Source: Myxococcales bacterium
GTDB lineage: Bacteria; Myxococcota_A; UBA9042; JABWCM01; BTVJ01
Assembly: GCA_045863395.1 (NCBI GenBank)
Contig: BTVJ01000010.1
Span: 1 to 64,000, forward strand
Direction: 5' to 3'
Length of the DNA stretch: 64,000 nt
Positions within the stretch are counted from its first letter, which is position 1; each line of letters opens with the position of its first letter. A model generated the notes under the pieces. The model had not been told where the DNA came from and made no database searches. It saw only the letters and a program-made list of their open reading frames with translations. The position numbers and the translations under genes are program-made. Below are positions 37,268 through 64,000 of this stretch, one piece after another.

Positions 37268-38079
37268 AGCGCCTCCGGGAGTCCGGCCAGGGACGACAGC
37301 CGGAACACCGGCCCCTGCCGGCAGCAGGTCACCTCGTTGATCTGGCAGTGGCCGCACTTGCCGACCCCGCAGCGCATGCGGCGCTCCAGGTCCACGAAGA
37401 TGCGGTCGCCGCCGATGCCCCTCCGCGCGAGCGCCATCACTACGAACTTGTACATGACGGGGGGACCACACAGGGCGGCGACGGTGCGCTCCGGGTCCAG
37501 GTCCAGCCCGGGAATCGGCGCCGTCACCAGGCCGACCCGGCCCGCCCACGGCTGGTGCCGCGTCTCGTCGACGAGCCGGATCACCTCGACCCCGTCCACC
37601 TCTGCCCACGCCCGCAGATCCTCCCTGTAGAGCTCCGCGTCCGGCGTGCGGCACCCGCTGATGATGGTGATGCGCCCGAAGCGGGCCCGCTCGGCGATCA
37701 GGGCCTGGATCAATGACCGGAGCGGCACGAGGCCGAGCCCGCCGCAGACCAGCAGGACGTCCTGCCCCTCGAAGTCCGAGAGCTGGAAGCCCGAGCCGAA
37801 GGGCCCGCGCACGCCGACCGTGTCACCGGGCCCGAGCCGGTCCATGGCGCCGGTCACCGTGCCGATGCGGCGGATCACCATCTCGAGGACGTTGTCCTGC
37901 CGCGGCCCGCACGAGATGGAGATGGGCGCCTCTCCGACGCCGAGCACGGACAGCATCACGAACTGGCCAGGCCGGTGCCCGAGCGGGCGGTCGAGCTCCA
38001 CCCGGTAGAAGCGCTCGCGCTCGGTGAACCCTTCGACGGCGACGATGCGGGCCGGCCGCGGCACGTAGAGCGTGTTCAT
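37264..38079 (-). CDS. hydG: Group 3b hydrogenase gamma (FAD/NAD(P), 2Fe-2S) subunit
   Basis: PGQFVML, GEAPISI, RGPFG, GGLGLVPLR, CGPPVM, MRCGVGKCGHCQI. Confidence 0.92.
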   Translation of the reverse strand: MNTLYVPRPARIVAVEGFTERERFYRVELDRPLGHRPGQFVMLSVLGVGEAPISISCGPRQDNVLEMVIRRIGTVTGAMDRLGPGDTVGVRGPFGSGFQLSDFEGQDVLLVCGGLGLVPLRSLIQALIAERARFGRITIISGCRTPDAELYREDLRAWAEVDGVEVIRLVDETRHQPWAGRVGLVTAPIPGLDLDPERTVAALCGPPVMYKFVVMALARRGIGGDRIFVDLERRMRCGVGKCGHCQINEVTCCRQGPVFRLSSLAGLPEAL

Positions 38080-40330: not shown

Positions 40331-40872
40331 ATGCGCACCTCCCAGTGGACTCTCACCGCGGCGCTGGTCGCCGCGACCACCGTCTGCGCAGCGGACGAAG
40401 GAGCGACCATGAAGATCACGTCCCACGCCTTCGACTCCATGGGGAGCATCCCCGCGAAGTACACCTGCCAGGGCGCGGACACGTCGCCGCCCCTGGCCTT
40501 CAGCGGTCTCCCCGAGGGTACGAAGAGCCTCGCCCTCATCGTGGACGACCCGGACGCGCCGGACCCCAAGGCCCCCAAGATGACCTGGGTCCACTGGGTG
40601 CTCTACGACATGCCGCTGGCGGCGCTCGCCGAGGGGGCGGCCAAGGGGGGCCTCCCCGCCGGGACCCGGGAAGGGAAGAACGACTGGAAGCGCACGGGCT
40701 GGGGCGGCCCCTGCCCGCCCATCGGACGCCACCGCTACTTCTTCAAGCTCTACGCCCTGGACACGACCCTCGGGGACCTGCACGAGCCCACCAAGGCGGC
40801 GCTCGAGGCAGCCATGGCCGGCCAGTCCTGGCGAGGGCCGAGCTGGTCGGGACCTACGAGAAGTCGAAGTAA
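40331..40872 (+). pseudogene. ybhB: YbhB/YbcL (PEBP) family protein with a 1-nt frameshift near the C-terminus
   Basis: DDPDAP...WVHW...GPCPP...HRYFFKLYALD. The conserved ending VLARAELVGTYEK is in another frame after ...GCC GGC CA|GTC at 40824/40825. Confidence 0.75.
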
Positions 40873-41048
40873 GAGGGTGTATTAAAAATGGCCCGTCGCG
40901 AGCGCGTGGGCGCGCCCGCATGGCAAGGAGCGGGCTTCCCGACGAGGGGGCGCGTACTCGTGGTACTCGTCCCCTCGTCGGGAGGCCCGCGACGCGGCCA
41001 AGCGGGATGCGACCGCGCGCGTAGCAGGGCCATTTTGAATACACCCTC
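40873..41048. mobile_element. 176-bp non-autonomous MITE, IS5-family-like ends
   Basis: Terminal inverted repeats GAGGGTGTATTAAAAATGGCCC / GGGCCATTTTGAATACACCCTC (22 bp, 1 mismatch), TAA on both flanks, and an internal 20-bp stem at 40930-40949 / 40971-40990. Confidence 0.85.
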
Positions 41049-41283
41049 TAACGACGCCCGCGCATGCAGGCTGGACGGCAGACCGCCCTTGCGCGAGACG
41101 ACCGTCGTGCGGTATCCAATGTCCGTTCCCGGCGCAATTGAAGCCCGTCCACCGCACTGATCGCGGGTGCCCGAGCGATCGCGCCCAGCCCTCTGCCCGT
41201 GAGGGCGCCGGGGCGCTTGGAGCCGAGCCATGCACACTCCCCTCCCCCCCCGCGCACCGACCGAGCGAGCCGCCGCGAGCCAG

Positions 41284-44200
41284 ATGATCCGTGGAGCGCT
41301 GCCCCTCGCGCTCGTGCTGCTCGTGGGCCTGTGGAGCGGCGCCGCCTCGGCGCAGGTGTGCGCGCGGGTCAAGATCGAGATCGTCCAGGAGCTCACGCTG
41401 GAGCGTCAGGCCTTCGACGCGAAGCTGAAGGTGACGAACGGCGCGACGGACGTCCCGCTGACCCACCTGGGGGTCGAGGTGTCGTTTCGGGACGCGAGCG
41501 GCGGCGAGGTCGTGGCGTCGAGCGACCCGAGCTCCCTCGACGCCTCCTTCTTCGTGGCGCTCGACTCCCTGGACGGGGTGGACGCCGTCGACGGCACCGG
41601 GACCATCGCGGGCGGGGGCGTCGGGGAGGTCCACTGGCTGATCATCCCCGCGCCCGGCGCCGCCGGACCGGGTGGGACCCTGTACTTCGTCGGAGCGCGG
41701 CTCACGTACCGGCTCGGCACCGAGGAGCACACCACCGACGTGGCGCCGGACACCATCACGGTGCGGCCCATGCCCGAGCTGCACCTGGACTACTTCCTGC
41801 CGGACCAGGTCCACGGCGACAACCCGTACACGGACCCGGAGGAGCCGCCCGAGCCCTTCACCCTCGGGCTCCGGGCGTCCAACCAGGGCTTCGGGGTGGC
41901 AGAGAAGCTGGCCATCGAGTCGGCCCAGCCGAAGATCGTGGAGAACGAGCAGGGCCTGCTCATCGCCTTCGAGATCATCGGGAGCGAGGTGGACGGGGCT
42001 CCGGCCACCACGAGCCTGAAGGTGGACCTCGGGGACGTGCAGCCGGGCGAGGCGTCCGTGGCGCGCTGGTTCATGACCTCCACGCTCCAGGGGAAGTTCG
42101 TCTCCTTCGAGGCCAGCTTCACCCACGCCGACGCCCTCGGCGGCAAGCTGACCTCGCTCCTGGAGGAGGTGCGGACCCACCTGCTGGTCCACGACCTGCG
42201 GGTGGACCTGCCCGGCCGCGACGCACACGTCGACTTCCTTGCCTACGACGCCGTGGGCAACCTGACCCTGTATGAGTCGGATCTCGTCGACAGTGCGGTG
42301 TGGGACGCTTCGGACGAAGCAGAGCTCCTTGCTGCCGGACCTGACGCCTGGAACCTTGCCGTCCCGCCCACCGGCGGGTTCTCCTGGGCCCGGGTCGACG
42401 ACCCCAACGCGGGGACCCGGGTCATCGCGTCGGTGGTGCGAGCGGATGGCCGTGTGCTGGCGCCCGACGCCGCCTGGCTCTCGCGCGTATGGGTGAAGGA
42501 CTCCCAGTCGTACCTCTTCTACGTCAACGTCTTCGACACGGGGAACCCCCTCGGGCTGCCCTACGTGGTGACCTTTGGCGGGATGGCGCTCGCCAACTAC
42601 CCGCCAGTGCTCGGCTTCCTGCCGGACCGGGCCGTGGCGGCCGGCGACGCCCTGGCCTACGGGGTCGCGGCCACGGACCCGGACGGGACCGTACCCACCG
42701 TGCAGGTGGGCCACGCGCTGCCGGCTGGCGCGACCTTCGCCGCGCTCGGGGGCGGGGAGGGGCGCCTCGACTGGACCCCCACCGCGGCGCAGGTGGGGAG
42801 CTACCCCATCCTCTTCGAGGCCACCGACGGCAAGCTCTTCGACAAGGCGGTGGCGACCATCCACGTGGTGCCCGCCGGGACGCCCAACAGCCCACCGAGC
42901 GCGGTGGAAGCTGCCATCCAGACCACGGTGGGCACGCCGAGCCCCCCCGTCACGCCGACGGTGGTGGACCTCGACCCCGACGACCAGCACTTCTTCCAGA
43001 TCACCGCGGCGCCCGCCCATGGGGCGGCGGTGGTGGTGCAGAACCAGCTCGTCTACACGCCGTCGCCAGGCTACAAGGGCCCGGACTCCTTCGGGATTCG
43101 CGCGGTGGACCTGTTCGGGGAGGCCGTGGACGGCCTGGCGCAGGTGCTGGTGACCGGCTACGACAACCTGGCGGTGGAGAGCCTGGAGTGGGGCCCCGAG
43201 GGCGTGACGGTCGGAGTGCGCCTCGACGGCACCGAGGCGCCGGTCACGCCCGTGGTGCTGGAGGTGCGCGCCGCGGGGTGCGGCATCGACGCGGTGGTGG
43301 GGTCGGTGGAGCTGCTGCCCCAGCCAGGGCTGGAGTCGGTGGTGGTCGCGGTGGAGCTGCCCACGGACCGGGCGCTGGTCCTGGTGGCGGTGCTGGACGC
43401 CACCGACGCGCTGCCGGAGCCCGACGAGCTGGACAACCGGGCGAGCATCCCGGTCGCGACGGGCGCGGCCTCCACTGCGACGCTCTCCATCGGGTCGAGC
43501 GGCTCCGAGCAACGCAAGTCGTGCGCGGGTCAGGCGCTGGCCATGAACGGTCGCGCGACCTGGAGCATCGCCGAGGCGAGCCCCTGCGGGGGAGTGCCCG
43601 CGGCCGGGCAGCCGATGGTGTGGGCGCTGCGGGATCTGGACGGCGCCCCGGTGCGCCAGGGGAGCGGGCAGACGGACGCCTTCGGCGCGTGGCACCTGGA
43701 GACGGGCCTGCCGGCAGAGTCCATGGCGCTCTATGACCTGGACGTGACGGTGGGCACCCAGGGGGGCACGTGGAGCACGCGGCTGCTGGCAGTGCCCTGC
43801 CCTGCCGCGGTGCCCCCGCCGATGGTGCCCGCGCCGCCCTATCCCGGGCCGAGCGGGGCTGCCGTGGTCGTGTTCAGCGACGGCACGGCGGTCATCCCGT
43901 GGCTGGTACACCCGGGGACGCCCATCCCCACCGCCGGGCACGGAGGCAGCGGCGCGAGGGGGGCCACCTGGGGCACGGGGGCCTCGGACCAGACGGCGCC
44001 GGGCGGCCCGATCCTCGGAGCCCGCGGCGGCGTGGTGGGTGCCTTCGACGCGGCGGCCGGCGCCCTCACGGCCTCGGCAGCCAAGGCGGGCGAGCCGGTC
44101 ACCCTGCGCGGCACGGTCACGGCCAACGACTCCTACTGGGGGCTGCCCGTGGGCTGGACGGCGGAGGGTCCGGCGGGGACGCTGCCCATCGCCCCCACCA

Positions 44201-47200: not shown

Positions 47201-47421
47201 CCGACGGGACCGCGGCCTATGGCGGCGACCTCGTGGAGGTCGCGGTGTGGGAGCGCCCCCTGAGCGGGGCCGAGCTCGCAGCGATGGAGATCGCCCTGGC
47301 CGACGCCCACGGGCTCTACCACCCCGACGCGGCCTGGATCGCCGCCCTGCCGCCAGAGCACGCCGCCATCGTCCACGCCAACCGGTGGAACCAGGACCAG
47401 GCGGAGGCGGCGCTGCCATGA
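41284..47421 (+). CDS. Large secreted protein: conserved N-terminal QELTLERQAFDA domain, Ig/cadherin/CARDB-like domains, 4 LamG-like repeats
   Basis: Signal peptide MIRGALPLALVLLVGLWSGAASA|Q, NYPPVL...DPDG Ig repeats, four GLxLWL(R/D)AD...F(D/H)G(VDD)...ELLVW units. Confidence 0.85.
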   Translation: MIRGALPLALVLLVGLWSGAASAQVCARVKIEIVQELTLERQAFDAKLKVTNGATDVPLTHLGVEVSFRDASGGEVVASSDPSSLDASFFVALDSLDGVDAVDGTGTIAGGGVGEVHWLIIPAPGAAGPGGTLYFVGARLTYRLGTEEHTTDVAPDTITVRPMPELHLDYFLPDQVHGDNPYTDPEEPPEPFTLGLRASNQGFGVAEKLAIESAQPKIVENEQGLLIAFEIIGSEVDGAPATTSLKVDLGDVQPGEASVARWFMTSTLQGKFVSFEASFTHADALGGKLTSLLEEVRTHLLVHDLRVDLPGRDAHVDFLAYDAVGNLTLYESDLVDSAVWDASDEAELLAAGPDAWNLAVPPTGGFSWARVDDPNAGTRVIASVVRADGRVLAPDAAWLSRVWVKDSQSYLFYVNVFDTGNPLGLPYVVTFGGMALANYPPVLGFLPDRAVAAGDALAYGVAATDPDGTVPTVQVGHALPAGATFAALGGGEGRLDWTPTAAQVGSYPILFEATDGKLFDKAVATIHVVPAGTPNSPPSAVEAAIQTTVGTPSPPVTPTVVDLDPDDQHFFQITAAPAHGAAVVVQNQLVYTPSPGYKGPDSFGIRAVDLFGEAVDGLAQVLVTGYDNLAVESLEWGPEGVTVGVRLDGTEAPVTPVVLEVRAAGCGIDAVVGSVELLPQPGLESVVVAVELPTDRALVLVAVLDATDALPEPDELDNRASIPVATGAASTATLSIGSSGSEQRKSCAGQALAMNGRATWSIAEASPCGGVPAAGQPMVWALRDLDGAPVRQGSGQTDAFGAWHLETGLPAESMALYDLDVTVGTQGGTWSTRLLAVPCPAAVPPPMVPAPPYPGPSGAAVVVFSDGTAVIPWLVHPGTPIPTAGHGGSGARGATWGTGASDQTAPGGPILGARGGVVGAFDAAAGALTASAAKAGEPVTLRGTVTANDSYWGLPVGWTAEGPAGTLPIAPTTWFYANGTLHVAATWTPPAGGAWTITLRVGPALGDTDPTNDTASLVVDVAPQVPSLDGLALWLDGTSGVSTDAEGRVAGWADRSGRAMDAAQPDAAARPDALAGGVRFHGASSLVLPDGFAALGDGLTVIAVVAPDQASPMGVLDLGPGPMAPRIGLGLDADARVRWQAGARVVAGGVEAELAAPQVVTVVHGGTLARALVGGVEVLAEAARVPKGGEHAGNRVGASGDPALASFRGELRALLVYERPLPDGERAALEAWLADRHGAWHPGAAWVEALPEPAQALAATHHWSQAEAEAWVAWDADNPGEAIPGDGLALWLRADSAERTGGEVIGWPDRSASPSPTPATPVSASARPTWVPGALGGQPAVRFDGVDDALLLAPGLADLRRSGVTVAAVVRSTAPRRNAPVLALRTATGAGPVDLRRRGHGPDAVLSTGGALAGDVGFESTAPRLLMAVIGADATLTGPLGAVSGSLPRPAGVPRDASRIGRDAWGEAFAGDLAELLVWDRSLSTDEQDAVALALADRYGLWHPQAAWVAALPAGLATQAEAHRWTQEEAAAQATFASAWPGVPGAGLSVWLRADLGLTATGGAVSAWDDQSPAGGDATQAAAESRPELLERGVRFDGVDDSLALPAGFGRFEGATVIGVLRPGSSPPGAHVFEARTTGGDSVALSATPTLRWRVGGLEVSGAAIPGAVQVVSVTHGADGAVQVRRGGAPAGSGTLPLPATTLRDVASIGGTGATYAGDLHELLVWRRALPPAEVVAVEAAVADAWGAWHPQAAWVGTLADVGATLEDTALVAAHGWSKAHALSWLAWKEVWSADGPPGVGLGLWLRADTGVVQAGGALTAWTNLAPVEPGPPALPTTPAAAPTVQGGVHFDGVDDGLALPPGLALLDGGFTVVLVARPQGIRRWERLVDLQGPSGGDQVCLLRKADSAALQVRVGAATLSGAQALGPEARILSVVVGPGGATIRSQGVVRGSGALPLPTRALRDRSRLGQGADGTAAYGGDLVEVAVWERPLSGAELAAMEIALADAHGLYHPDAAWIAALPPEHAAIVHANRWNQDQAEAALP

Positions 47422-48269
47422 AGGCGACGATCGCGCTGCTCCTGCTCACCGCGACCGCCTCGGCGGAGCCCCACGTGCTGCTGGATCGAGGCGCCGGCGA
47501 GCGCACCTTCCGGCTGCGCTTCGAGGCGCAGAACCCGGGGGCCGAGCCCCTCGCCGCCTCCTTCGTGGCGCTGGTCCCGTCCCGCGGGTGCGGATCCCTG
47601 GTGCGCCTCGTGAGCTCACACCCCGGCGAGCTGGACGAGGTGGGCGGCAGCGTGGCGGCCACGGTGCACGTCGGGGAGCTGCCGCCCTACGGCGCCGCGG
47701 TGGTCACTCTCGCCGCCACGCTGGGGGATGCCCCCCTGGGAGCACCGCCTGCCGGGGTCGCGGGGGACGACGGCGACCCGATCATCGACGCCGCCCTGGC
47801 CGACCGGACCATCCAGGAGCTCGCGGAGAAGGCCCGCCGCGCCACTGCGCGGGCCACCGCGGACGCGGCCTTCGACCTGGTGGTGGCGCGCATCACCCCC
47901 GCGGCGTTCGACCCCCTCCCGCCGGACCCCGTCGGGGCGCTGCGGAGCGGGCGCGGCGACTGCTCGGACATGGCGGCCGCCCTGGTGGCCGTCTGCCGCG
48001 CGGCGGGCGTGCCGGCCAGGTACGTGGGCGGCTGGCGAGTCTCGGGCAGCGCGGTCCTCGACCCCGCCCGCTACCACAACTGGGCGGAGGTCGGTGAGGG
48101 GTGGACCCCCATGGACCCCCACGGGAGCGAGCGGGCGCCCCAGCCCGAGACCTGCCTCGTCGCCGCCGTCGGTGCCGCCCCCACGGTGACGGGCGGGAGC
48201 CCCAGGTTCCGCCCGCTGTCCCCCGGCCTCGTGGTGAAGGCCATGGCCCCCAAGGAGGGAACGAGATGA
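47418..48269 (+). CDS. Secreted transglutaminase-like (Cys-His-Asp) protein
   Basis: Signal peptide, GDCSDMAA...CRAAGVPARYVGG, YHNWAEV, WTPMDP. ATGA overlaps on both sides. Confidence 0.88.
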   Translation: MKATIALLLLTATASAEPHVLLDRGAGERTFRLRFEAQNPGAEPLAASFVALVPSRGCGSLVRLVSSHPGELDEVGGSVAATVHVGELPPYGAAVVTLAATLGDAPLGAPPAGVAGDDGDPIIDAALADRTIQELAEKARRATARATADAAFDLVVARITPAAFDPLPPDPVGALRSGRGDCSDMAAALVAVCRAAGVPARYVGGWRVSGSAVLDPARYHNWAEVGEGWTPMDPHGSERAPQPETCLVAAVGAAPTVTGGSPRFRPLSPGLVVKAMAPKEGTR

Positions 48270-54200: not shown

Positions 54201-57200
54201 TGCGCACGCCCGTGGTGGGGGACGTCCCTGCCGGCTCGACCACGGTCCCCGTCGTGAACGCCGCGGGCTTCCAGGCAGGCGACGAGGTGATCCTCTGGGA
54301 CGCCCAGGGTCCCCTCTCGCCCGGGCGGTGGACCTCCCGGCGCCTCTCCGGGGTCGCGGGAGGCGCCTTGCTCCTGGACGCGCCGCTCGCCGACGCCCTG
54401 CCGGGAGCGACGGACCAGGTGGTGGCCCAGCGGGTCCCCCAGTACACGAACGTCACGGTCAATGCAGGAGGGATCCTGACGGCGAGCCCCTGGGACGGTC
54501 AGACCGGGGGGCTCGTGGCCTTCCGCGCGACCGGCACGGTCACCATCCTCGCGGGCGGGAAGATCGACGCCAGCGGCCTCGGGTTCCGGGGCTCCCCGGC
54601 TTCCGGTACGTGGCAGTGCCGCCGGAACCAGTCGGGCGGGGGTGGCGAGGGCCTGCTCGGGCACCTCGCCGCGGACCAGCCGAACGCCCACGTCAACGGC
54701 GGCGGCGGGGCCCTGCGCGTGACCTGCACCGACGCGGCCGGCGGCGGCGGCGGCGGCAACGCGGCCCCGGGGACACCTGGCGAGGACTGGACCTGCTCCC
54801 TCGGCGGCAAGGGAGGCGCGGCAGTAGACGACCACGGCTTCACGCGGCTGCTCCTTGGGGGCGGGGGCGGCGAGGGCGGCGCGGACAACGACGGCGGCGC
54901 CCCGGGCATTGGTGGCCGCGGCGGAGGCGCCGTGGTGCTGTCCACCGCGAGCATCCTGATCGACGGCGAGCTCACCTCCCGCGGCAAGGCAGGCGGCAAC
55001 GCCTGCCAGAGCTGCGCCGGGTGCAGCGGCAGCGGCTGCGGAATGGGCGGCGGCGGGGGCGGGGCCGGCGGCTCCGTCCTGGTGCGCGCGGGTGCCTTCG
55101 ACCTCAACGTGGGGCTCGTGGACGTGGCGGGCGGCAGCGGCGGGCTCCACGTGGGCTCGTGCGGAGGAAACGGCGGCGCGGGCGGCGCCGGCCGCGTGCG
55201 CATCGAGGCCGATACGGTGGCGGGGCCCGTTCCCGGAGCCGTCACCGGGGCGCTCAGCGCCTTCGACTGGGCCGCGGCGACCCCCGTGGAGGGCGCGCCC
55301 ACCCCAGGCGCACCCGGAGCCGCCGAGTCGATGACCGCCACGGAGCTGCCCGCGGGCTCCCTCCTCTTCGCCGTGCGCTCGCGGGACGCGGTGGGCAACC
55401 TCTCGCCGCTCTCCAACGTGCCAGGAGTGGACTCGGCGCCCCCCACGGTCACCATCGACGACCCTCTGGACGGCGAGACCGTCACGCGCCCCGTGGCAGT
55501 CCAGGTGACCGCCACCGACGACGTCGGGGTCCTGTCGGTGCGCTTCGCGGTAGATGGACAGGAGCTCTCCGTGGACACGGCGCCACCGTGGCGCCATGAC
55601 CTGGACATCCGGGCCCTGGTGCCGGGCCCCCACGAGATCTCCGTGGTGGCGACGGACACCTCCGGCATGGAGGCGCAGGCGGCCGTCACGGTGGTCATCG
55701 CGCCCGCCCCACCGGCGGCGCCGGTGATCCTGGCGCCGGAGGAGGGCGCGCTGGTCAGGACGGCCACCCCAGCCATCGGAGGCTCCGCGGAGGCCTGGAC
55801 CACGGTGCACGTCTACGCCGACGGGGACCTCGTGGCCAGCGTGCCCTCGGCGAAGGCCGCCACCCTCTCCTGGGAGGCGGAGGCCGACGCGGTCGCGCGC
55901 CACGGCCTGACCATCGACGGAGGCCAGGTCGCCATCGCCCCTGCGGGGGGGACCGCCACCAACCTGGCCCTCCTGCCCGGGACGGTGGTGACGGGCGGCA
56001 CGGACACCTCCACCGCGGTCGACGGCAAGACGACGTACTGGTGGGCGAGCTGGCGCACCAGCGCCGCCTGCACCGAGGTGCCGACCCGCCTCGGCCGGGT
56101 GGCGCTGGCCGCCCCGGCGCTCATCGATCACATCCGCCTCGGCCTCTTCGACGACGGGCGCCAGTTCTACGGCTACCGCGTCGAGGTGAGCCAGGACGGC
56201 CACGAGTGGGTCACCTGGGCGGACACCGCCGGCAGCGGCCTGGACTACACCGGGGATCAGGAGCTGAGCGGTCCTCCCCGCATGATCCGCTACGTGGACA
56301 TCTGGGTCACGGGCAGCACGACGGGCTGTGACGCCATCGTGTCCGAGGTGGGCATCTTCGCGGCCACGAGCGGGCTCGGGGGCGTCGCGCTGTTCCCGCT
56401 GGTGGCGGACCCCACCGCCACCCTGGCCACCGGGTTCGAGGCCTCCGAGAGCCCGGCGGACGGCTCCATCACCTGGGAGGTGCTGGCCACGGGGGACCTG
56501 CTGGCCGACACGTTCGAGGGCAACGCGGTGGACCCGGAGCGCTGGGTCCAGGCGGGGACCACCGTCGCCGCCGGGGTCGCGAGCGTCACGGGGACGGGCA
56601 CCTGGGGCCAGCGCTACCTCATCGGGCGCAAGCGCGCCTTCCGCACGGGTGACGTGGTGCTCTCCGCGCGCCTCTTCCCCACCACCGGCAGCCGCAGCAT
56701 GGTGGGCATCAAGGATCAAGACACCACCACCACCTACACGGCCCTGATCTACGGGCTCCACTTCGACGCGGGCACGCTCAACGTCTACGAGGACGGCACG
56801 CTGCGCGGGAGCGTGGGCACCTACACCCAGGCGCAGTGGATCGACGTGCGCATCGAGGTGGGGGACCCGGCGGGCGCCACCACCTGGATCCGCCCGGCGG
56901 GTGGCGACTGGTCCCAGGTCTACGCCAGCGCCTACAGCGCCGAGGCCGATCTGCGCCCGGCCCTCATCGTGCGGACCGGCACCGTGCAGCTCGACGCCAT
57001 GACGCTCCGGGCGCGGGCGTGGTGGCCCATGGAGCGCCTCTCCGACGCCGACCTGGCGGCCTCCCGGCTCCAGGTGCGCGCGCACCTCACGCGCCCCAAC
57101 GTCGAGGCGACGAGCCCCACCGTGGACGTGGCCTCGCTGCTGCTCTCCGACGGCGCGCTCGGAGCAGGGCCCGGCGCCTTCCGCGCCGTGGTCCCCCTGG

Positions 57201-60200
57201 CCGACGGCGCCCACACGGTCACGGCGGTGTGCGAGGATGCGGTCGGATCAGGCCCGCCGTCGCCGCCCGTGACCTTCACGGTGGACTCTGGTCCCCCCGA
57301 CGCCATCACGGACCTGACGGGCGTTGCGCTTCCGGGCGGCGTGGTGCAGCTCGGGTGGACGGCACCTGCGTCGGAGCCCGTGACCTCGTACCTGGTCTAC
57401 CGATCGAGCACACCCATCGAGGACGTCTCCCAGCACCAGCCCATCGCTACCACGGCGGCGACCGGCTTCCTCGACGCCTCCAACCAGAGCGCCACCTTCC
57501 ACTACGTGGTGGTGGCCGTCGACCTGGCAGGCAACCGCAGCGCCCCCTCGAACGCGGTGGTCGTGGTGTCCGACAAGGCGGGCCCCACCGCGACCGTCGC
57601 GACCAACCCACCGTCACCGCTTGGCCTCGGCGACGTGGAGGTGGTGTTCACCCTCAGTGAGCCGGTGCAGGCAGGCGCCGTGTTCCGCTTCGTGCCACCC
57701 GGAGGCGCCCCGGTCACGCTGAGCGCGGTGGCGGACTCCCCCCTGGTCCACCGCGCCACCCTGGCGATCACCGAAGCCATGGCGTCCGGCCAGGCGGAGT
57801 TCACCTGGAGCGGCGTGGACCTGACGGGCAACGCGGGGACAGCGGTGCCCACGGGGCGCTACGTGACCCTGGACACCGTCCGCCCGACGGCCACGATCAG
57901 CCTCACTCCGCCGCCGCCGCTGGGGCCTGGCTCCGTCGCGGTCAAGGTCCTCAGCAGCGAACCTCTGAGCGCGGTCCCGGGGCTGGCATTCGCTCCGGAG
58001 GGGAAGGGCCCGACGCCGATCCCCCTGTCCGGCGCGGGTGGCCTGTACCAGGGCACGCTGACCGTCACGCCCGCCCTGGGCGACGGCGTGGGGGTGTTCT
58101 CCTTCCAAGGGACCGACGCGGTGGGCAACGTGGGCACCACGCTCACCAAGGGCGGGACCGCGATCATCGACACGACTCCCCCGGCCCCCCCCACCGACCT
58201 CGCCGCCGTCAAGACGCCCACCGGCGCCATCAGCCTGACGTGGAGCCAGCCGGGAGATGCCTCCACCTGGCGCGTCTACCGGGACCGCGACCCCCTCACA
58301 TCGACGGCGGGCCTCACGCCCGCGGTGACCGCCACCACCACGTCGGCCCTCGACCTGCCGCCCGAGGACGGCCTCTGGCACTACGCGGTGGTGGCGGTGG
58401 ACGCGGCAGGCAACGCGAGCGGACCGTCGGACGGTGCGAGCGTGGTGGCGTCGCCTCCACCCCCGGAGGACCCCACGGGCCTGACGGTGGTGGCCGCCGG
58501 GCTGACCACCGTCACGGTGGGGTGGATCCCGTCCATCGACTCCCAGGGCACCCTGACCGGCTACCGGGTATACCGGGACGGGGCCCTGGTGCAGACGCTA
58601 TCCCCCTCCGCGACGGCGACCACGCTTGGGGGCCTCTCGCCCGCGTCGGGCGCCGCTGTGCGGGTCACCGCCTTCGACGCGGCCAACCGGGAGAGCCTCG
58701 GCGCCACCGTCCAGGCGTGGACCCTCGTGCCGAATCCAGCGGACCTCGCCGCCGAGGGTCAGGACGGCCGCGTGGAGCTGGAGTGGACACCCTCCCTGGC
58801 GCCCGCCGTGCTGCACCAGGCGATCTACATGGGTGAGGCTCCGTTCGGCACCGTCGCCGGCCTCCTCCCCGTGGCGACGGTGGCGCCAGGAGCGGCCTCG
58901 GCATCCGTCCTTGGGCTGACCAACGGCCAGCCCCTCTGGTTCGCCGTGGTCGCCGTGAACCAGTCGGGTCTCTTCGAGCCGGCGGTGACGCCCGTTGGGG
59001 CCACGCCGGCCGACCACGAGGCGCCGAACCCGCCGACCGCGCTCAAGGTGGTGGAGTCGCTCGCCACGAGCGTGGTCCTGAGCTTTACCCCCAGCACCTC
59101 CGCCGACCTCGCCGGCTACACGCTCAAGCGGAACGGCACACAGGTCGCGACCCTCCCCGCGGGGGCCTCGGGGTACACGCTCGGCGGCCTCCCCACGGCC
59201 TCCTCCAACGCCCTCGCCCTGGCGGCCTACGACGGATCCGGCAACCAGAGCGCCGCGGCGACGGTGACGGCGGTCACCCTGCTGCCGAACCCGAGCGGGG
59301 TCACCGTCACCCCCCACGACCAGTCCCTGACGGTGACCTGGGCCCACGCCCAGCCCGTGCTGCTGGTCAAGACCTACAGGGTCTACGCGGAGCCCGCTCC
59401 CTTCACCAGCGTGACGGGCCTCACGCCGCGGGTCACGAAGTGGGGGACGAGCGCCACGATCACCGGCCTCTTCAATGGCCAGCCCACCTGGGTCGCCGTC
59501 ACCACCGTCAACGACAGCGACGGCGAGACCCAGGCCGTGACTCCGGTGAGCGCCATCCCCCAGGACGACGCCCCGCCGGCCAACCCTGGCTCGGTGACGG
59601 TGACCGCCAGCGACGGCACCTCCGTGACCCTCGCCTGGACTGCCCCCCCCAACCCGACCGGCGACCTGGCGGGCACCCGCCTCTACCTGGACGGCGCCCT
59701 CGTGGCGACCGTCGGCCCGACCCTCACCACCCACACGCTGACGGGCCTCGCCCCGGGCTCGAGCTACGCGGTGCGCCTGACCAGCTTCGACGCAGCAGGC
59801 AACGAGAGCGCCGGCGCCACCCTCACCGTCTACACGACGCTGCCGAACCCGCCGGTCACCGGCGTGACGCCCGGCCACGGCTCTCTCACCCTGGCGTGGA
59901 CCCCGGCGACACCCGCATCCAACGTGGGCGGCCAGGCCCTCTACGTGGGGACGGCCCCCTTCGTGACCGTCGCGGGGAAGGCGCCTGCCCTGGTGGTCGG
60001 CCCCACGGCGACCTCGGGGAAGGTGGTGGGGCTGACCAACGGACAGGTCGCGCACGTGGCGGTGGTGACCGTCTCCAAGTCGGGGGGCTTCGATCCCGCG
60101 GTGGTGTCCGTCCCCGGGACCCCAGCCAAGGACACGGTGGGCCCCTCTCTCGCAAGTGTGACCTTCGCCGGCGCGCCTCTCGCAGACCCGGTCACGGGCG

Positions 60201-63200
60201 ACGGTGCCTTCGCCGTGGACGCGACGGACGCGGAGGGCGTCGCGTGGGTCCGCTTCCTCGTGGATGGCGAGAGCATCGGACAGGATCCCTCGTCGAGCGG
60301 GGGGTGGAGCGTCGCGTGGAGCCCGGACGCCGCCGGCAACGGGCCCCACGCGCTCCGCGTCGAGGCGCAGGACGTCCACGGCAACGGCTCCAGCCTGGAC
60401 GCGCCCTTCGTGGTGACCCTGGGCCCGCCCCCACCGCCGACGCTGACGTCCCCCGCCGACGGGGCCGTCGTCGGCACCTCGACCCTGCTGGTGAGCGGCA
60501 CGGCCAAAGCGGGCTCGCTGGTCGCGGTGCGCGCGGGAGAGGCGGCCGCCACGATCTCCGCCAACCCGTCGGGCAGCTTCACGACGGCCATCACGCTCGC
60601 GCCCGGCCCCAACGTCCTCACGGCGACCGCGACCGGTGTGGGAGGCGAGAGCGCCCCGTCCGCGCCCATCGGCGTCACGCTGGACACGGTCACCCCGCTG
60701 GCTCCCAAGGCCCTGTCGGCGGTGGGGGGGGAGGCCGGCGCCATCACCCTGTCCTGGGCCGACGCGGGCGACTCCTCGCCGAGCGGCACCCAGGGCTACC
60801 GCGTCTGGCGCGCGGCGGCCCCGTTCACGGCGGTGGGGCAGGCCACGCTCGTCACGGCGACGCCCGTGACCGCCCTCAAGGTGACCGATCTGCCCCCGGC
60901 GGACGGCGCCTGGTGGTACGGCGTCACCAAGCTGAGCAAGGCCGGCCTGGAGAGCGGCCTGTCCAGCCTCGCGACGGCCACGTCCGACTCCACGCCCCCC
61001 ACCGTTCAGCTCGTGTGGACTCCGCAGGGAGCCTCCGGCGGCGGCAAGGTGGGCGTCGGCCCCCTCGCGCTGACCGCCACCTTCAGCGAGCCCCTGCTTG
61101 CCACGCCCTTCCTCGCGCTGACGCCCGCCGGCGGCACCCCGATGACCATCCAGCTCGCCAAGGCCGGAGACACCTTCACGGGAACTGCCCAGGTCACGGA
61201 GTCCACCCCGAGCGGCACCGCGTGGGCCGTGGTGTCCGCCCGCGACCTGGTGGGCAACCGGGGGACCCAGATCACCGGGGGGGGCACCGTCACCCTGGAC
61301 ACACGGGCGCCGGAGGTCGCGTCTCTCGTCACGGACCCGCCCGCCCCCATCGCCAACGACCCGGACGCGCCGGTGACCGTCTCCGTCACCGTGACGTTGG
61401 ACGAGGCGATGCCGGCTGGTGTGGCCCCCTCCCTGACGTGGCGCCTGCTGGCCACCCACCCGGAGCCCTCGACAGTCCCACTCGCGTCACTGGACCCGCT
61501 GACCTGGGTGGGGGGCCTGACGCTCCCGACGACCGCGGGCGCTCCCCCCGAGGCCCTCGCCTTCGCGTGGCTCGCCGTGGACGAGCTCGGCAACGAGGGC
61601 ACGACGATCCATGGGCCCGCGGAGATCGAGGTCTACCAGGGCGCCCTCCCCCCACTGGCCGCGCCGTTGGGCTTGAAGGCGGAGCCGCAGCCGGGCGGGC
61701 ACATCGCCCTGAGCTGGATCCCGGTCGCAGGGGCGTCCGCCACCCGCGTCTACCGCCGGCCGCCGGGTGGTGCCCACACGCTGATCGCCGAGGTGCTCGA
61801 CCCGTCCCACACGGACCTCCCGGACGCAGACGGGCCGTGGGTCTACGCCGTCGCCTCAGTGCGCACGGTAGGCAGCGCGGTGGCGGAGAGCCCGAAGAGC
61901 CCGGAGGCGACGGCGACCTCCGACAGGGTGCCCCCGGGCGCCCCGCTGGCTCTGGCGCTGTCCCTGACGGGGCAGGGGGTGGTGGCCCAGTGGTCGCCGC
62001 CGCCCTACACGGAGCCTGTCACCTACCGCCTGCTCCGCTCAGCGGACCCGATCACCACCGCAGAGGGAGCCACGGTGGTGGGCTCAGGCATCCCGGGTAC
62101 GAGCGCCGCGGACCCCGCCCCCACCACCGCGGAGCGCACCTACGCGGTGGTGGCGGCAGACGCGGTGGGCAACCTCTCCGCCCCGAGCGCCAACCAGATG
62201 ATCAACGCAGCGCTCCTGCCCGTGGCCGCCCTGACCGCCGTCCGGGGAGCAGGGGCGCCCGTGCTGACCTGGACGCATGGCGCCTCGGACCTTGCCGGCT
62301 TCCGGGTCACCGTGGACGGCGCCACCGAGCCCGGCCTGCTCGCAGCGCCGCCATTTACGGACGCCGCCTGGGAGGGAGGCTCTCGGACCTACGGCGTCTC
62401 CGCCGTCGACGACCTGGGGGACGCGAGCCCCGAGCACCTGCTGACCCTGCCGGATCTCACCGCCACCCTGGCCAGCGGGAGCGTCAGGCGCAACGTGATC
62501 TCGCGGTTGACCTGGTCCCTGACGTCCCCCACGACGGTAGCCGGCGTGACGCTCGCGTTGGACCTGGGGGCCTCGGCGGCTGCCGCGCCGCCGGTCACGG
62601 TGGGGCCGGCACCGACGCTTGTGGACCTGGTGGTGGCGGGTGCCCCCTCCCTGCCAGACGCGGTGGACGCCACACTGGGCATGTCCGTGACGCCTGCCCC
62701 CGGCGATGGCGTGCTCATCGAGAGCGCCGCCCCCTTGACGGTCACGAACGACGGCTACCTGCTGCAGGTCCAGTCCCAGGCCCTGGTCCGGGGCGCGCCT
62801 ACCCAGGTGCGCCTCGTGCTCCAGAACACGAGCGACGTCACGGCGGAGGTGGTGACCGCGACGGGGGCCGGCTCCAAGCCCTCGGACCAGGTACGCTTCC
62901 GCCTGGAGGACCCGGACGGCAACCTGCTTGCCACGGCGGCACTCCACCAGGGCCTCGGGGAGGGTGTGGTGCAGGTGCCGAACGGCCAGACGGTAGGGCG
63001 CGCGCAGCCCGGGCAGGCGTTCACCTCGGCCTGGACCACGCTCGCCGTCCCCGAGGCCGCGCCGGACACCGTGGTCCTGCGCGCGGTGGTGGACGCGGTC
63101 CACTACGACCTGGGCAAGGCAGGCCACGTCCAGGTGCCGGGCCCGTCGTCCTCCCAGACCCTCACGCTCGTGCCGCCGCCCTACGACGCCGCCGTGACGA

Positions 63201-64000
63201 GCGCGACGCCCTCCGTTTCGCAAGGAGAGGCGCCCATCCTCATCGCCGGCAACGCCTGGCAGCCCTCCGGCGCCCCGGCCGGGAAGGTCACGGTGCGCAT
63301 CACCCTCACGCTGGCGGGCTTCGTGCGGACCTTCGACGTCCAGACCGCCGCGGACGGGACCTTCACCCTGCCCTTCTTGCCGCCGGCCGCCGAGGGCGGC
63401 GTCTATGAGGTGCGCGCCGGCTACCCGGGGCTCGGCGACACGGCGCCCGAGGCGACCTTCACGGTCAACAAGGTGGTGGTGACCCCCAAGGCACCAACGC
63501 TGACCCTCGCGACGGGCTACCCCACCACCCTCGCGCTCACGGCAGCCGCCACCCCTGGCCTGGCGCTGACGGCGCTCCGCGTGGAGGTGGTCCAGGCGCC
63601 GGCCGGCATCACGCTCGAGCTGCCTCCGCCCCAGGACGCTACGGGGACCGTCTCACTGCCGATCATGGTCACCGGCGGGGCGCCAGCCCCCACCTCGTCG
63701 TACTTCTTGCTGCGAGTCCTGAGCGACGAGGGCACCTGGGGGGAGCTGAAGGTCACCTACACCCTGACGCCAGCGGGGCCGGCCCTGACCTGGTCCCCCG
63801 CGTTCGTGCAGACCGGGGTGGCTCGGGGGGACGTGGTCAGCGAGACCGTCACAATCGCCAACGAGGGGACCCTCGTCGCCGCTGGCGTGTCGGTGTCGCT
63901 CCTGTCCTCCACCAAGACCACCGCCCCCACCTGGGCCTTCGTCCAGTCGGGAAAGCAGCTCGGCGACCTCGCCGTCGGCGCCAAGGTGCCCGTCACGCTG
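48266..64000 (+). CDS. Giant secreted multidomain surface protein (FN3/Big repeats, fibrinogen-like, discoidin, DUF2341-like, LamG-like, Gly-rich), >5245 aa, 3'-partial
   Basis: AAGGAGG RBS, ATG 48266 overlapping the upstream TGA, signal peptide MSAALRTLIAVAMLVPGAAAA|Q. The frame reads sensibly wherever it was translated and ends ...GAKVPVTL at 64000. The ORF track has no terminated ORF in this frame, consistent with no stop codon. Confidence 0.88.
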   Translation, partial: MSAALRTLIAVAMLVPGAAAAQNLLVNGSCDDALVGAEIPGWTEVTGTSWTRRSSSPGARDGSYYFYAGANAAAELAQSVDVSSMAADIDGGAHAFRFSGFIRSFDQAPSDTARIVVEYRSGAGTVLDAFDTGPTAYFVAWTPISDTRTAPVGTRTIRVRLESIRFNGTNNDGYFDGLRLVALGAPPAVAGTATRIEDLRAEATEGGVRLRWTAPTAGLRRGLSPDLPALDCVDVAETGNTASGVYWLATEGGPSRAFCDLDTDGGGWTLCYTATTTVRLASETTYDPALPYGTDGYRADCRGVPFRDVLYVNHDGGDHAWFRRDAAGDVTMGELGYNTNGAELGTFTGHGATDAGVPYQLMVCDTTNWYPGLMVSGAGSCWKSCGNWCSDSTSLYYRMRGLSYVGAAFNQPGHRDLQPKRLSVGVRRRVPNPPPGASTYEVRSSAVAITDAAPWEPTPSRGEHDGTVDDGALTLAPPVAGVVDDRARVLAVESGLTVPLGVAVTDGAWIYAKPQAGSGPSIFWKIGSGMGGTVAGQVESSVGPDTTASMSAAYLDGFIYNPISGNPYALERLDVATGVLETVAVPDGLLRRDTGRVEAGGEILIGSDGQHLLCLAHSIEGGSLNGWRLRTYGVGPLGEPDLLDESLIFTTSYAARSVLADGSVVIPMPWGNSSGTARILAVLDPATLAQVRTSSIIQCSSCWDFDAPAGGGYDPLHGLFWVGDGVRPRLAAFPATRVTSAGTFTSEAHDFGAPVTLGSITWDAEIPAGASATVSARTSQDLATWSAFAPVSASGGTPAVPAGRYAQVRVTMSRGSNAPRVRGLHVSASGETWSAATPVTGAPEPGPPGTPQEMVVPVAPGEAWFAIRAVTTAPGPASVPAHRPAGTAITLDSPPDGATVAGLVPVQVTAAATSVELRVDGALVATLEAPSAPAAQAASPRWRLSRTVRVDDAGPGLSATTTVSVPLDVADLIPRGFVRPDLSDLRLLGSEELPRLRHRDGTLRFRLPRPIPPGGTDTFTLVMGGDPSGPAPDSPGSVALFHDDFEGGDARWTNLQGPWAVAEVGGRTAMQRAVTSETLGGGVRAWLTQAEPGPLPQSFDLEALVRSPSGYSNAYWGFFLYGSAVTVNDATYIGSNHLIHHTWTTNGGYTEIQSVSDFVRLDHWHRLSAHVRGVTFDTRLDGTLTVFGRPGHGPAGTVGLWSEATYGAGTAPAWYDDLTIWDRGVLPPRVVLGPETPAPTTPSTWTWAWDTTSLAPGTHTIEARAVDAFGSASATAVVTVEAPVVSTPTLTAPADGALVEGTTVHVTGTAPAGSVVTVTVDGEPAATTTAAGGTPWVVEAEAPSNTVTGGMIVGGAIHVGSWPGPSTTNVALGRKATANKTYSGSYPASQAVDGRPESGAGTYWLAPNGAKDAHVTVDLGAPHVVDRIRVINTRNGSFNDRSTKDYRLGISMDGVTFTVVASGTLADDDWTTWVTSTLAPPLVARHVRFYADTYFGSGAGLGELEVYGTEQGAWARVETPWHALPGTLVSFTADASGAAHEVSVEGETWLPISALPGLSLPAGQARLRTTLVRSSLTSDPWVDRLQVVASGAGGGPGAFATDVPVIGGIHQIAASATLGAVTSSPSATVTIDVDPAPPGAVNDLLATPGAAQGSVVLTWTAPGDDGAAGTAAAYQIWRHSAPLSANLLQVATVVPAPAPAAGGTPESLTVTGLATGTTYHWILRAVDDRGQEAPLSNGSSTIPGDTTAPSLTITAPVGGAHLRSSQTLTATATDPSGVATVTWKVDGTTVAVATTPFSATIDTAGWADGQHTIVGEARDTFGNLTTKQVTVTFDNTAPSLALDPVASPRATAVTVTYTTSDALTPAGQLVVRDQDGRAPPLVYGDEGPRTVTVTSTDLAGNVASALVAFLIDQTGPAPIVDLEATPGGGGVELAWTAPSDALTSVASYEVRVAAAGGTAFGTGADGPLSVTGTVTVDSVRTPVVGDVPAGSTTVPVVNAAGFQAGDEVILWDAQGPLSPGRWTSRRLSGVAGGALLLDAPLADALPGATDQVVAQRVPQYTNVTVNAGGILTASPWDGQTGGLVAFRATGTVTILAGGKIDASGLGFRGSPASGTWQCRRNQSGGGGEGLLGHLAADQPNAHVNGGGGALRVTCTDAAGGGGGGNAAPGTPGEDWTCSLGGKGGAAVDDHGFTRLLLGGGGGEGGADNDGGAPGIGGRGGGAVVLSTASILIDGELTSRGKAGGNACQSCAGCSGSGCGMGGGGGGAGGSVLVRAGAFDLNVGLVDVAGGSGGLHVGSCGGNGGAGGAGRVRIEADTVAGPVPGAVTGALSAFDWAAATPVEGAPTPGAPGAAESMTATELPAGSLLFAVRSRDAVGNLSPLSNVPGVDSAPPTVTIDDPLDGETVTRPVAVQVTATDDVGVLSVRFAVDGQELSVDTAPPWRHDLDIRALVPGPHEISVVATDTSGMEAQAAVTVVIAPAPPAAPVILAPEEGALVRTATPAIGGSAEAWTTVHVYADGDLVASVPSAKAATLSWEAEADAVARHGLTIDGGQVAIAPAGGTATNLALLPGTVVTGGTDTSTAVDGKTTYWWASWRTSAACTEVPTRLGRVALAAPALIDHIRLGLFDDGRQFYGYRVEVSQDGHEWVTWADTAGSGLDYTGDQELSGPPRMIRYVDIWVTGSTTGCDAIVSEVGIFAATSGLGGVALFPLVADPTATLATGFEASESPADGSITWEVLATGDLLADTFEGNAVDPERWVQAGTTVAAGVASVTGTGTWGQRYLIGRKRAFRTGDVVLSARLFPTTGSRSMVGIKDQDTTTTYTALIYGLHFDAGTLNVYEDGTLRGSVGTYTQAQWIDVRIEVGDPAGATTWIRPAGGDWSQVYASAYSAEADLRPALIVRTGTVQLDAMTLRARAWWPMERLSDADLAASRLQVRAHLTRPNVEATSPTVDVASLLLSDGALGAGPGAFRAVVPLADGAHTVTAVCEDAVGSGPPSPPVTFTVDSGPPDAITDLTGVALPGGVVQLGWTAPASEPVTSYLVYRSSTPIEDVSQHQPIATTAATGFLDASNQSATFHYVVVAVDLAGNRSAPSNAVVVVSDKAGPTATVATNPPSPLGLGDVEVVFTLSEPVQAGAVFRFVPPGGAPVTLSAVADSPLVHRATLAITEAMASGQAEFTWSGVDLTGNAGTAVPTGRYVTLDTVRPTATISLTPPPPLGPGSVAVKVLSSEPLSAVPGLAFAPEGKGPTPIPLSGAGGLYQGTLTVTPALGDGVGVFSFQGTDAVGNVGTTLTKGGTAIIDTTPPAPPTDLAAVKTPTGAISLTWSQPGDASTWRVYRDRDPLTSTAGLTPAVTATTTSALDLPPEDGLWHYAVVAVDAAGNASGPSDGASVVASPPPPEDPTGLTVVAAGLTTVTVGWIPSIDSQGTLTGYRVYRDGALVQTLSPSATATTLGGLSPASGAAVRVTAFDAANRESLGATVQAWTLVPNPADLAAEGQDGRVELEWTPSLAPAVLHQAIYMGEAPFGTVAGLLPVATVAPGAASASVLGLTNGQPLWFAVVAVNQSGLFEPAVTPVGATPADHEAPNPPTALKVVESLATSVVLSFTPSTSADLAGYTLKRNGTQVATLPAGASGYTLGGLPTASSNALALAAYDGSGNQSAAATVTAVTLLPNPSGVTVTPHDQSLTVTWAHAQPVLLVKTYRVYAEPAPFTSVTGLTPRVTKWGTSATITGLFNGQPTWVAVTTVNDSDGETQAVTPVSAIPQDDAPPANPGSVTVTASDGTSVTLAWTAPPNPTGDLAGTRLYLDGALVATVGPTLTTHTLTGLAPGSSYAVRLTSFDAAGNESAGATLTVYTTLPNPPVTGVTPGHGSLTLAWTPATPASNVGGQALYVGTAPFVTVAGKAPALVVGPTATSGKVVGLTNGQVAHVAVVTVSKSGGFDPAVVSVPGTPAKDTVGPSLASVTFAGAPLADPVTGDGAFAVDATDAEGVAWVRFLVDGESIGQDPSSSGGWSVAWSPDAAGNGPHALRVEAQDVHGNGSSLDAPFVVTLGPPPPPTLTSPADGAVVGTSTLLVSGTAKAGSLVAVRAGEAAATISANPSGSFTTAITLAPGPNVLTATATGVGGESAPSAPIGVTLDTVTPLAPKALSAVGGEAGAITLSWADAGDSSPSGTQGYRVWRAAAPFTAVGQATLVTATPVTALKVTDLPPADGAWWYGVTKLSKAGLESGLSSLATATSDSTPPTVQLVWTPQGASGGGKVGVGPLALTATFSEPLLATPFLALTPAGGTPMTIQLAKAGDTFTGTAQVTESTPSGTAWAVVSARDLVGNRGTQITGGGTVTLDTRAPEVASLVTDPPAPIANDPDAPVTVSVTVTLDEAMPAGVAPSLTWRLLATHPEPSTVPLASLDPLTWVGGLTLPTTAGAPPEALAFAWLAVDELGNEGTTIHGPAEIEVYQGALPPLAAPLGLKAEPQPGGHIALSWIPVAGASATRVYRRPPGGAHTLIAEVLDPSHTDLPDADGPWVYAVASVRTVGSAVAESPKSPEATATSDRVPPGAPLALALSLTGQGVVAQWSPPPYTEPVTYRLLRSADPITTAEGATVVGSGIPGTSAADPAPTTAERTYAVVAADAVGNLSAPSANQMINAALLPVAALTAVRGAGAPVLTWTHGASDLAGFRVTVDGATEPGLLAAPPFTDAAWEGGSRTYGVSAVDDLGDASPEHLLTLPDLTATLASGSVRRNVISRLTWSLTSPTTVAGVTLALDLGASAAAAPPVTVGPAPTLVDLVVAGAPSLPDAVDATLGMSVTPAPGDGVLIESAAPLTVTNDGYLLQVQSQALVRGAPTQVRLVLQNTSDVTAEVVTATGAGSKPSDQVRFRLEDPDGNLLATAALHQGLGEGVVQVPNGQTVGRAQPGQAFTSAWTTLAVPEAAPDTVVLRAVVDAVHYDLGKAGHVQVPGPSSSQTLTLVPPPYDAAVTSATPSVSQGEAPILIAGNAWQPSGAPAGKVTVRITLTLAGFVRTFDVQTAADGTFTLPFLPPAAEGGVYEVRAGYPGLGDTAPEATFTVNKVVVTPKAPTLTLATGYPTTLALTAAATPGLALTALRVEVVQAPAGITLELPPPQDATGTVSLPIMVTGGAPAPTSSYFLLRVLSDEGTWGELKVTYTLTPAGPALTWSPAFVQTGVARGDVVSETVTIANEGTLVAAGVSVSLLSSTKTTAPTWAFVQSGKQLGDLAVGAKVPVTL

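What the first reader, a model, noticed from the sequence alone, without database searches (positions are those of the whole stretch)
41284..64000. Three-gene unit: large secreted protein, secreted transglutaminase-like enzyme and a >5245-aa giant protein, a candidate cross-linked surface or matrix system
Seen: three genes chained by ATGA overlaps (47418-47421, 48266-48269), all with signal peptides. The middle gene has an intact Cys-His-Asp triad and sits between two Ig/lectin-rich proteins. Inference: a dedicated enzyme that cross-links or cleaves the flanking proteins to build or release an extracellular filament, lattice or adhesin, analogous to but not homologous with LapG/LapA. The N-terminal VCARVKIEI.QELTLERQAFDA domain and the non-repetitive region after ~62700 look like conserved assembly cores carrying variable cargo. 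I know of no functional description of this unit.
Basis: partly seen in the sequence, partly recalled or inferred. Interest (0 to 1): 0.8.

Follow-up and report, generated by a model that had tools for sequence, protein, structure and literature searches.

The report
Giant stalked Rhs toxin display system
The three genes are part of a widespread gene set, not found described in our searches, in which a 6,912-residue stalk protein ends in an Rhs capsule with a tip that is likely a toxin, and likely docks onto a second large secreted protein, with a dedicated transglutaminase-type enzyme that likely processes the assembly.

Summary
Observation confirmed, and the three genes do co-occur across phyla. 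The main feature lies past the window edge. Gene C runs to 6,912 aa and ends in an Rhs/YD shell with correctly spaced autoprotease residues and a 171-aa tip. In relatives the tips are hypervariable (RNase beside barstar, phospholipase, peptidase, HINT), so this is a polymorphic-toxin system rather than a plain matrix. In 50 genomes chosen for having gene A's 425-aa core, 35 have a strong C-core hit (30 within 21 kb) and 43 have this transglutaminase subfamily; background was 3 of 401 genomes. A secreted double-rhodanese is a fourth member, and four betaproteobacterial loci carry type II secretion genes. The A core and C core are fused in one chain in Nostoc, a myxobacterium and an acorn worm, which suggests they form a split junction; binding was not modelled. 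The tip here belongs to a conserved Cys-rich amphipathic beta family, likely membrane-inserting, with no clear immunity gene. Whether the enzyme cross-links or cleaves is untested, and a paralogous locus lacks it. Ten literature searches and four look-ups of this scan found no description.

The parts
41284..47421 (+). Gene A, 2,045 aa: signal peptide, conserved core, Ig-like domains, LamG lectin-like tail
41356..42630 (+). A core (425 aa): all-beta, no Pfam family; Cys26 of the precursor invariant in 75 of 75 aligned sequences; likely the docking half
47418..48269 (+). Gene B, 283 aa: secreted transglutaminase-like enzyme, triad C182 (47961), H220 (48075), D233 (48114)
48266..64000 (+). Gene C, part inside the window: signal peptide, variable lectin/fibrinogen-like N-terminal region, long Ig/FN3 stalk. 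The gene continues on contig C10 to 69004 (6,912 aa): Rhs/YD shell at contig 65054-68488 (residues 5597-6741, with R6701, D6714, D6738) and a 171-aa Gly/Cys-rich amphipathic tip at contig 68489-69004
63776..64000 (+). Start of the C core (residues 5171-5547, continuing to contig 64906): Ig-like domains, conserved hairpin from contig 64424 that folds poorly alone, Cys hairpin

Best explanation
This locus encodes a giant Ig/FN3 stalk protein ending in an Rhs shell and a small tip, and it likely works as a secreted, surface-displayed polymorphic toxin assembly in which the stalk likely docks onto partner protein A and the transglutaminase-type enzyme likely processes the Rhs-bearing chain. Shown: gene anatomy, Rhs shell, conserved autoprotease residues, hypervariable tips with toxin and immunity families in relatives, and co-occurrence of A, C, the enzyme and a double-rhodanese. 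Inferred steps: (1) A, B and C cross the inner membrane by Sec; (2) a conserved hairpin of the C core pairs with the first strand of the A core and A's invariant Cys forms a disulfide to C's Cys-rich linker, perhaps helped by the rhodanese-like protein, giving a three-armed particle: C's stalk, A's adhesive or anchoring tail, and the Rhs arm; (3) the complex leaves through a type II secretion system; (4) the Rhs shell cuts its own tip and holds it until contact; (5) here the tip is likely a membrane-inserting beta-hairpin protein. For the enzyme I put cleavage (maturation or release) at about 0.45, isopeptide ligation at 0.4, other at 0.15.
For: Rhs families above cut-off; best solved relatives are T6SS Rhs proteins. 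R6701/D6714/D6738 have the same 13 and 24 residue spacing as R2103/D2116/D2140 of the bacterial TLP autoprotease. Among 36 distinct tips the only similarities at E<1e-3 are the myxococcotal family, one HINT pair and one pair of close relatives; Pfam names RNase followed by barstar (L081), PLA2 followed by an ankyrin protein (L077), Ntox16, M15 peptidase and HINT, while 27 of 36 have no family. Orphan Rhs cassettes follow the locus in G100. C core strong in 35 of 50 A-bearing genomes, 30 on the same contig 4.9-20.1 kb away. Enzyme subfamily in 43 of those 50, 36 within 31 kb, against 3 of 401 genomes of a betaproteobacterial order, two with A and the third inside a rhodanese plus type II secretion cluster at a contig edge. 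Fusions of C core then A core: Nostoc PCC 7120 WP_044523664, Saccoglossus XP_006822956 (three units), and G272 with only 36 residues between them. The conserved C hairpin has pLDDT 52-64 when folded alone against about 90 or more for most of the rest. Some A proteins end in sorting signals (MYXO-CTERM over cut-off in L010). Type II secretion genes inside or beside the locus in Eleftheria, G100, G751, G778. The five Cys-rich tips rank 1-5 of 35 for alternating hydrophobicity, this one z 3.2 with 0 of 500 shuffles reaching it.
Against: No toxicity, binding or enzyme activity was measured. This tip has no family, is conserved in at least eight sequences rather than polymorphic, and no clear immunity gene abuts it at either locus: C10 has a 350-bp gap then four small lipoproteins, C22 a 200-bp gap then a secreted protein with a MYXO-CTERM-like end. 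Most A proteins, including this one, have no visible sorting signal. A secretin lies within 15 kb of A in only 3 of 36 genomes (hand count; about 1 expected by chance), and neither G000 locus is beside type II secretion genes. The enzyme was not found in 7 of 50 genomes, nor in G711. The 36-residue G272 linker does not score against a hairpin profile, so its equivalence is by position only. One frame holds A core before C core with no Rhs (L089).
Confidence: 0.65

Rival explanations
1. In this lineage the system is an adhesin or matrix scaffold: the Rhs shell carries a non-toxic beta-barrel that anchors the giant protein in a membrane, and the enzyme cross-links A and C into a surface lattice (closest to the first reader's idea).
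For: Conserved tip with no clear immunity gene; lectin, fibrinogen-like and thrombospondin cargo on A and C; Rhs-less variants exist (G201 and G443 end in HINT, G272, L089); outer-membrane-protein-like tips are reported for TLPs (PMC13018210 sections 6 and 8).
Against: Across the family the tips include recognisable toxins with cognate immunity genes; each bacterial chain examined has one core, with no repeated cross-linking motif seen; the enzyme is missing at the C22 locus and in 7 of 50 genomes.
Confidence: 0.2
2. A and C are exported side by side but do not bind; each core is an independent secretion or folding signal read by the same machinery, and the enzyme acts like LapG to release each protein from the cell.
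For: The A core folds confidently alone (pLDDT 92.9); A and C cores are not homologous (hhalign probability 0.1); intact triad in 43 of 44 aligned sequences.
Against: Order C core then A core in fusions from three distant lineages; invariant Cys at A's mature N-terminus; poorly folded conserved hairpin in C alone. No LapD-like receptor appeared among recurrent neighbours.
Confidence: 0.12
3. The Rhs part is a passenger of a type VI secretion system or a chance fusion, and the three genes are not one functional unit.
For: The shell's closest solved relatives are T6SS Rhs effectors; the Rhs is a separate gene in many loci.
Against: Signal-peptide-like N-termini on C and on standalone Rhs genes (by eye); no PAAR or VgrG family in C or among recurrent neighbours; tight co-occurrence against a background under 1%.
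Confidence: 0.03

Closest known systems
Rhs/YD polymorphic toxins (T6SS Rhs effectors; Sec/T2SS-exported class of Zhang et al. 2012, PMC3482391, passages read)
   Same: YD shell, autoprotease residues, hypervariable tip, downstream immunity and orphan cassettes in relatives; signal-peptide export is a listed route.
   Different: A 2,000-7,000 aa Ig/FN3 stalk, a conserved separate partner A, an active stand-alone transglutaminase and a double-rhodanese. The passages read describe inactive transglutaminase domains fused inside Rhs toxins and list transglutaminase as a protease for two toxin families, not this arrangement.
Bacterial teneurin-like proteins (PMC13018210; abstract, sections 6 and 8, passages read)
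   Same: Sec-exported, adhesion domains in front of a YD shell, encapsulated toxic or membrane-active tip, same catalytic spacing, present in Myxococcota.
   Different: No NHL propeller was detected; the shell follows the Cys-rich linker directly and scores better against T6SS Rhs (E 2.5e-37) than TLP (1e-15). The main text has no mention of transglutaminase or rhodanese.
TANFOR polymorphic toxins of Bacteroidetes (PMC7073777, part 1 of 6 read)
   Same: Large Sec-exported FN3 proteins with fused or adjacent toxin modules, defined by a conserved delivery domain.
   Different: No TANFOR match in the NCBIfam scans; Rhs shell; different phyla and export route.
LapG/LapA adhesin release (recalled; search listing only)
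   Same: A periplasmic Cys-His-Asp transglutaminase-like enzyme encoded with a giant secreted protein.
   Different: B is PF01841, not the LapG family by Pfam; Sec rather than type I export; no LapD-like gene among recurrent neighbours; toxin payload.

Membership tests
Rhs polymorphic toxin | YD/RHS repeat shell and Rhs-associated core | tested here: met
   PF05593 E 4.8e-50; TIGR01643, TIGR03696 over cut-off
Rhs polymorphic toxin | Aspartyl autoprotease residues before the tip | tested here: met
   R6701, D6714, D6738 with published spacing; second motif reads DVLG rather than DPxG
Rhs polymorphic toxin | Hypervariable tips across the family | tested here: met
Rhs polymorphic toxin | Cognate immunity gene directly downstream | tested here: inconclusive
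   Met in relatives (barstar after RNase); none identifiable at the two G000 loci
Rhs polymorphic toxin | Toxicity of this tip | not testable with these tools
   Only an amphipathic beta pattern
T6SS Rhs effector | PAAR or VgrG delivery domain, no Sec signal | tested here: not met
   No such family; signal-like N-terminus
Bacterial teneurin-like protein | FN-plug plus NHL propeller before the YD shell | tested here: not met
   No NHL family; shell starts at residue 5597, about 50 residues after the C core
TANFOR toxins | N-terminal TANFOR domain | tested here: not met
   Not among NCBIfam hits at E 0.01 for A or C
Transglutaminase-like superfamily (gene B) | PF01841 core with Cys-His-Asp | tested here: met
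Transglutaminase-like superfamily (gene B) | Cross-linking or protease activity on A or C | not testable with these tools
   needs biochemistry
LapG/LapA/LapD | LapG-family protease with LapD receptor and type I-secreted adhesin | tested here: not met
   Only PF01841 matches B; no such recurrent neighbours in 80 loci

The most novel reading that the evidence does not exclude
The C core and A core are two halves of an undescribed split junction module that builds a branched, covalently locked extracellular machine: two long arms plus an exchangeable Rhs warhead, assembled in the periplasm by a dedicated transglutaminase and rhodanese-like protein and exported by its own type II secretion system. 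The same module, fused, was carried into cyanobacterial RTX giants and animal membrane proteins.
Probability: 0.35. Interest if true: 0.88.

Novelty: new variant of a known kind. Interest (0 to 1): 0.74.

Why it matters
It would define a new delivery class of Rhs toxins with its own assembly enzymes, spread patchily over many phyla (296 relatives among GTDB species representatives; 3,299 clusters at 50% identity) and present in cultured organisms (Eleftheria terrae, Methylomonas koyamae, Desulfobotulus alkaliphilus, Thiothrix caldifontis). It gives a bacterial transglutaminase-like enzyme and a periplasmic rhodanese-like protein concrete candidate substrates, offers a marker for finding new toxin tips (27 of 36 have no Pfam family), and points to a bacterial adhesion/toxin module shared with an animal protein, echoing the teneurin story.

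Tried and rejected
Fold searches gave only generic Ig-like matches: A core best Z 8.2, rmsd 2.6 over 101 residues, no whole-fold Foldseek match for either core; this does not show new folds. ESM Atlas gave unnamed clusters for the A core and sub-0.9 hits for the tip. Conserved Gln/Lys as cross-link sites: Q11 of the A core is also kept in fused, enzyme-less forms, so it is no evidence for cross-linking. Expression: metatranscriptome contigs cover the three genes, one 22-kb contig starting at 41072, but flanks are covered too and contigs cannot show level or strand; not used. General type II secretion linkage is weak (3 of 36). The downstream lipoproteins have no homologues in the genome or fetched loci; the first of the four was scanned in a wrong frame, so it is untested. 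Whether the enzyme tracks fused or separate Rhs genes: it occurs with both. Coevolution between cores was not attempted (about 35 pairs). Literature searches and scan look-ups found no description; the library lacks most subscription papers, and supplements of PMC3482391 and PMC13018210, which could list these architectures, were not opened.

Full report
Observation. The window is G000:C10:1-64000. Genes A (41284-47421, 2,045 aa), B (47418-48269, 283 aa) and C (from 48266) overlap by ATGA as stated. B is PF01841 with C182/H220/D233. A and C carry Ig-like, FN3 and lectin-like domains; A's first 430 residues match no Pfam family. Signal peptides were judged by eye. The genome is likely Myxococcota, inferred from the names of the closest hits.

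C continues to contig position 69004, 6,912 aa, and ends in an Rhs shell, residues 5597-6741, whose best solved relatives are T6SS Rhs proteins. R6701, D6714 and D6738 repeat the spacing of the catalytic R2103, D2116, D2140 of the bacterial teneurin-like protein (PMC13018210 passage), so self-cleavage of the 171-aa tip is likely. Contigs from two other DNA runs span the Rhs end and tip. A second locus on contig C22 has A (59% identical core) joined by ATGA to an 8,987-aa C with a related tip and no enzyme gene.

Co-occurrence. An A-core alignment found 296 relatives in GTDB species genomes, of which the best 80 loci were returned, with record titles from Myxococcota, Desulfobacterota, Gamma- and Betaproteobacteria, Lentisphaerales, Elusimicrobia, Nitrospirae and others; a profile search found 3,299 clusters at 50% identity. 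Among small neighbours in the 80 loci two families recur: the transglutaminase (47 loci) and a secreted double-rhodanese with a C-terminal CxxC (30 loci). I searched 50 of these genomes, picked for longer contigs and varied taxa. The C core matched in 38; of 35 with strong hits, 30 lie on A's contig 4.9-20.1 kb away and 5 on other contigs. The enzyme subfamily matched in 43 of 50, 36 within 31 kb; the rhodanese-like protein in 42 of 61 genomes, including an unlinked lipoprotein copy in G000 (C4:7093-8058). Control: in 401 genomes of one betaproteobacterial order A occurred in 3 and the enzyme subfamily in 3 (four or five candidates scored per genome); two coincide, one being the centre genome, and the third sits with rhodanese and type II secretion genes next to a gene cut by the contig end. 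In the window's phylum A is in 7 of 401 genomes. Kin are not independent, but the unit is real and sparse. The triad is intact in 43 of 44 aligned sequences, the exception being a wrongly chosen frame.

Payload. The Rhs end is in the same frame as the C core in 15 of 42 rows (some rows duplicate a genome); in many others C stops after its Cys-rich linker and the next gene is a stand-alone Rhs with a signal-like N-terminus. The 36 distinct tips, a few from orphan cassettes, are mostly unrelated. Pfam names HINT plus RNase with barstar downstream, PLA2 with an ankyrin protein downstream, Ntox16, M15 peptidase and HINT; 27 have no family. G100 has several orphan Rhs cassettes. This is the pattern of polymorphic toxins. 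The tip at this locus differs in being conserved: at least eight sequences share its Cys pattern, and four of them with one desulfobacterial tip rank 1-5 of 35 for strand-like alternating hydrophobicity (z 3.2 here). I infer a disulfide-tied, membrane-inserting beta protein. No clear immunity gene adjoins it at either locus, which leaves a non-kin target or an anchoring role open.

The two cores. The A core folds confidently as beta-sandwich domains (pLDDT 92.9) with only generic Ig-like matches. Its N-terminal Cys is invariant in 75 of 75 and is the only Cys of the core in 36 of 75. The C core folds well except for a conserved hairpin (pLDDT 52-64) and a Gly-rich linker. The two occur in one chain, C core first, in a Nostoc PCC 7120 RTX giant and three times in a Saccoglossus protein, 311-446 residues apart. 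In G272 the C pre-core runs into the A core through 36 residues, about the length of the hairpin plus A's first strand, with the payload arm and the Cys absent (positional argument only). I infer that the hairpin and A's first strand complete one domain and that the payload branches from this junction. One frame has the reverse order without Rhs (L089). The complex could not be modelled.

Export and anchoring. Eleftheria terrae has C, Rhs, ankyrin protein, A, a full type II secretion operon, rhodanese and enzyme in one run; G100, G751 and G778 are similar. Elsewhere linkage is weak (3 of 36 within 15 kb) and G000's secretins are on other contigs, so a general type II system is assumed here. 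A few A proteins end in sorting signals; this one does not.

The enzyme. It is dedicated and catalytically intact, but optional per locus. None of five Rhs-less loci examined (G201, G443, G272, L089, Nostoc) has it nearby, a small sample suggesting it acts on the Rhs-bearing chain; G099 and G711 lack a hit too. Cleavage and ligation remain about equally likely. A disulfide-helper role for the rhodanese-like protein rests on the PspE precedent (PMC5403849 passage) and its CxxC; untested.

Comparison and verdict. The payload is a known kind (PMC3482391 passages, PMC13018210 sections, PMC7073777 part 1). It fails the tests for T6SS effector, teneurin-like protein, TANFOR and Lap systems. The apparatus of split cores, enzyme and rhodanese-like protein was not found in ten literature searches or four scan look-ups; supplements were not opened. 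New variant of a known kind; interest 0.74.

Noticed in passing
window 40871-41064: A roughly 190-bp imperfect palindrome just upstream of gene A with at least eight long copies on other contigs, six of them 88-99% identical; looks like a MITE- or REP-like element.
   Followed up: partly
G000:C10 69353-70439 (L001:9353-10439): Four tandem small lipoprotein-like genes (75, 96, 96, 81 aa), each with paired Cys, 350 bp after gene C; three scanned had no Pfam match; candidate immunity proteins or unrelated.
   Followed up: partly
P0123 (XP_006822956, Saccoglossus kowalevskii): 7,485-aa animal protein with three tandem C core + insert + A core units and a C-terminal transmembrane-like segment; possible bacteria-animal shared module.
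   Followed up: partly
L089 (G050:C285, locus 15201-3250, minus strand): One 3,984-codon frame holding A core, a MYXO-CTERM-like segment, a second signal-like stretch and then a C protein without Rhs; may be two genes that lost a stop.
   Followed up: no
G201:C78 and G443:C32 (L128, L126): Rhs-less variants in which C ends in a HINT-like domain (recognised by eye), followed by A and the rhodanese-like gene.
   Followed up: partly
L113:2715-7982; also G100, G751, G778: Two further recurring genes in betaproteobacterial loci: a large IPT/TIG protein and a ~510-aa protein with no Pfam match.
   Followed up: no
window 30028-39113, minus strand: Run of genes that by eye look like a NiFe hydrogenase with maturation genes, upstream of and unrelated to the unit (labels recalled, not scanned).
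   Followed up: no
G000:C22 66504-53701, minus strand: Further large secreted proteins upstream of the paralogous locus, including a 2,489-aa lipoprotein-like protein and a 516-aa Cys-rich protein next to A's start.
   Followed up: no
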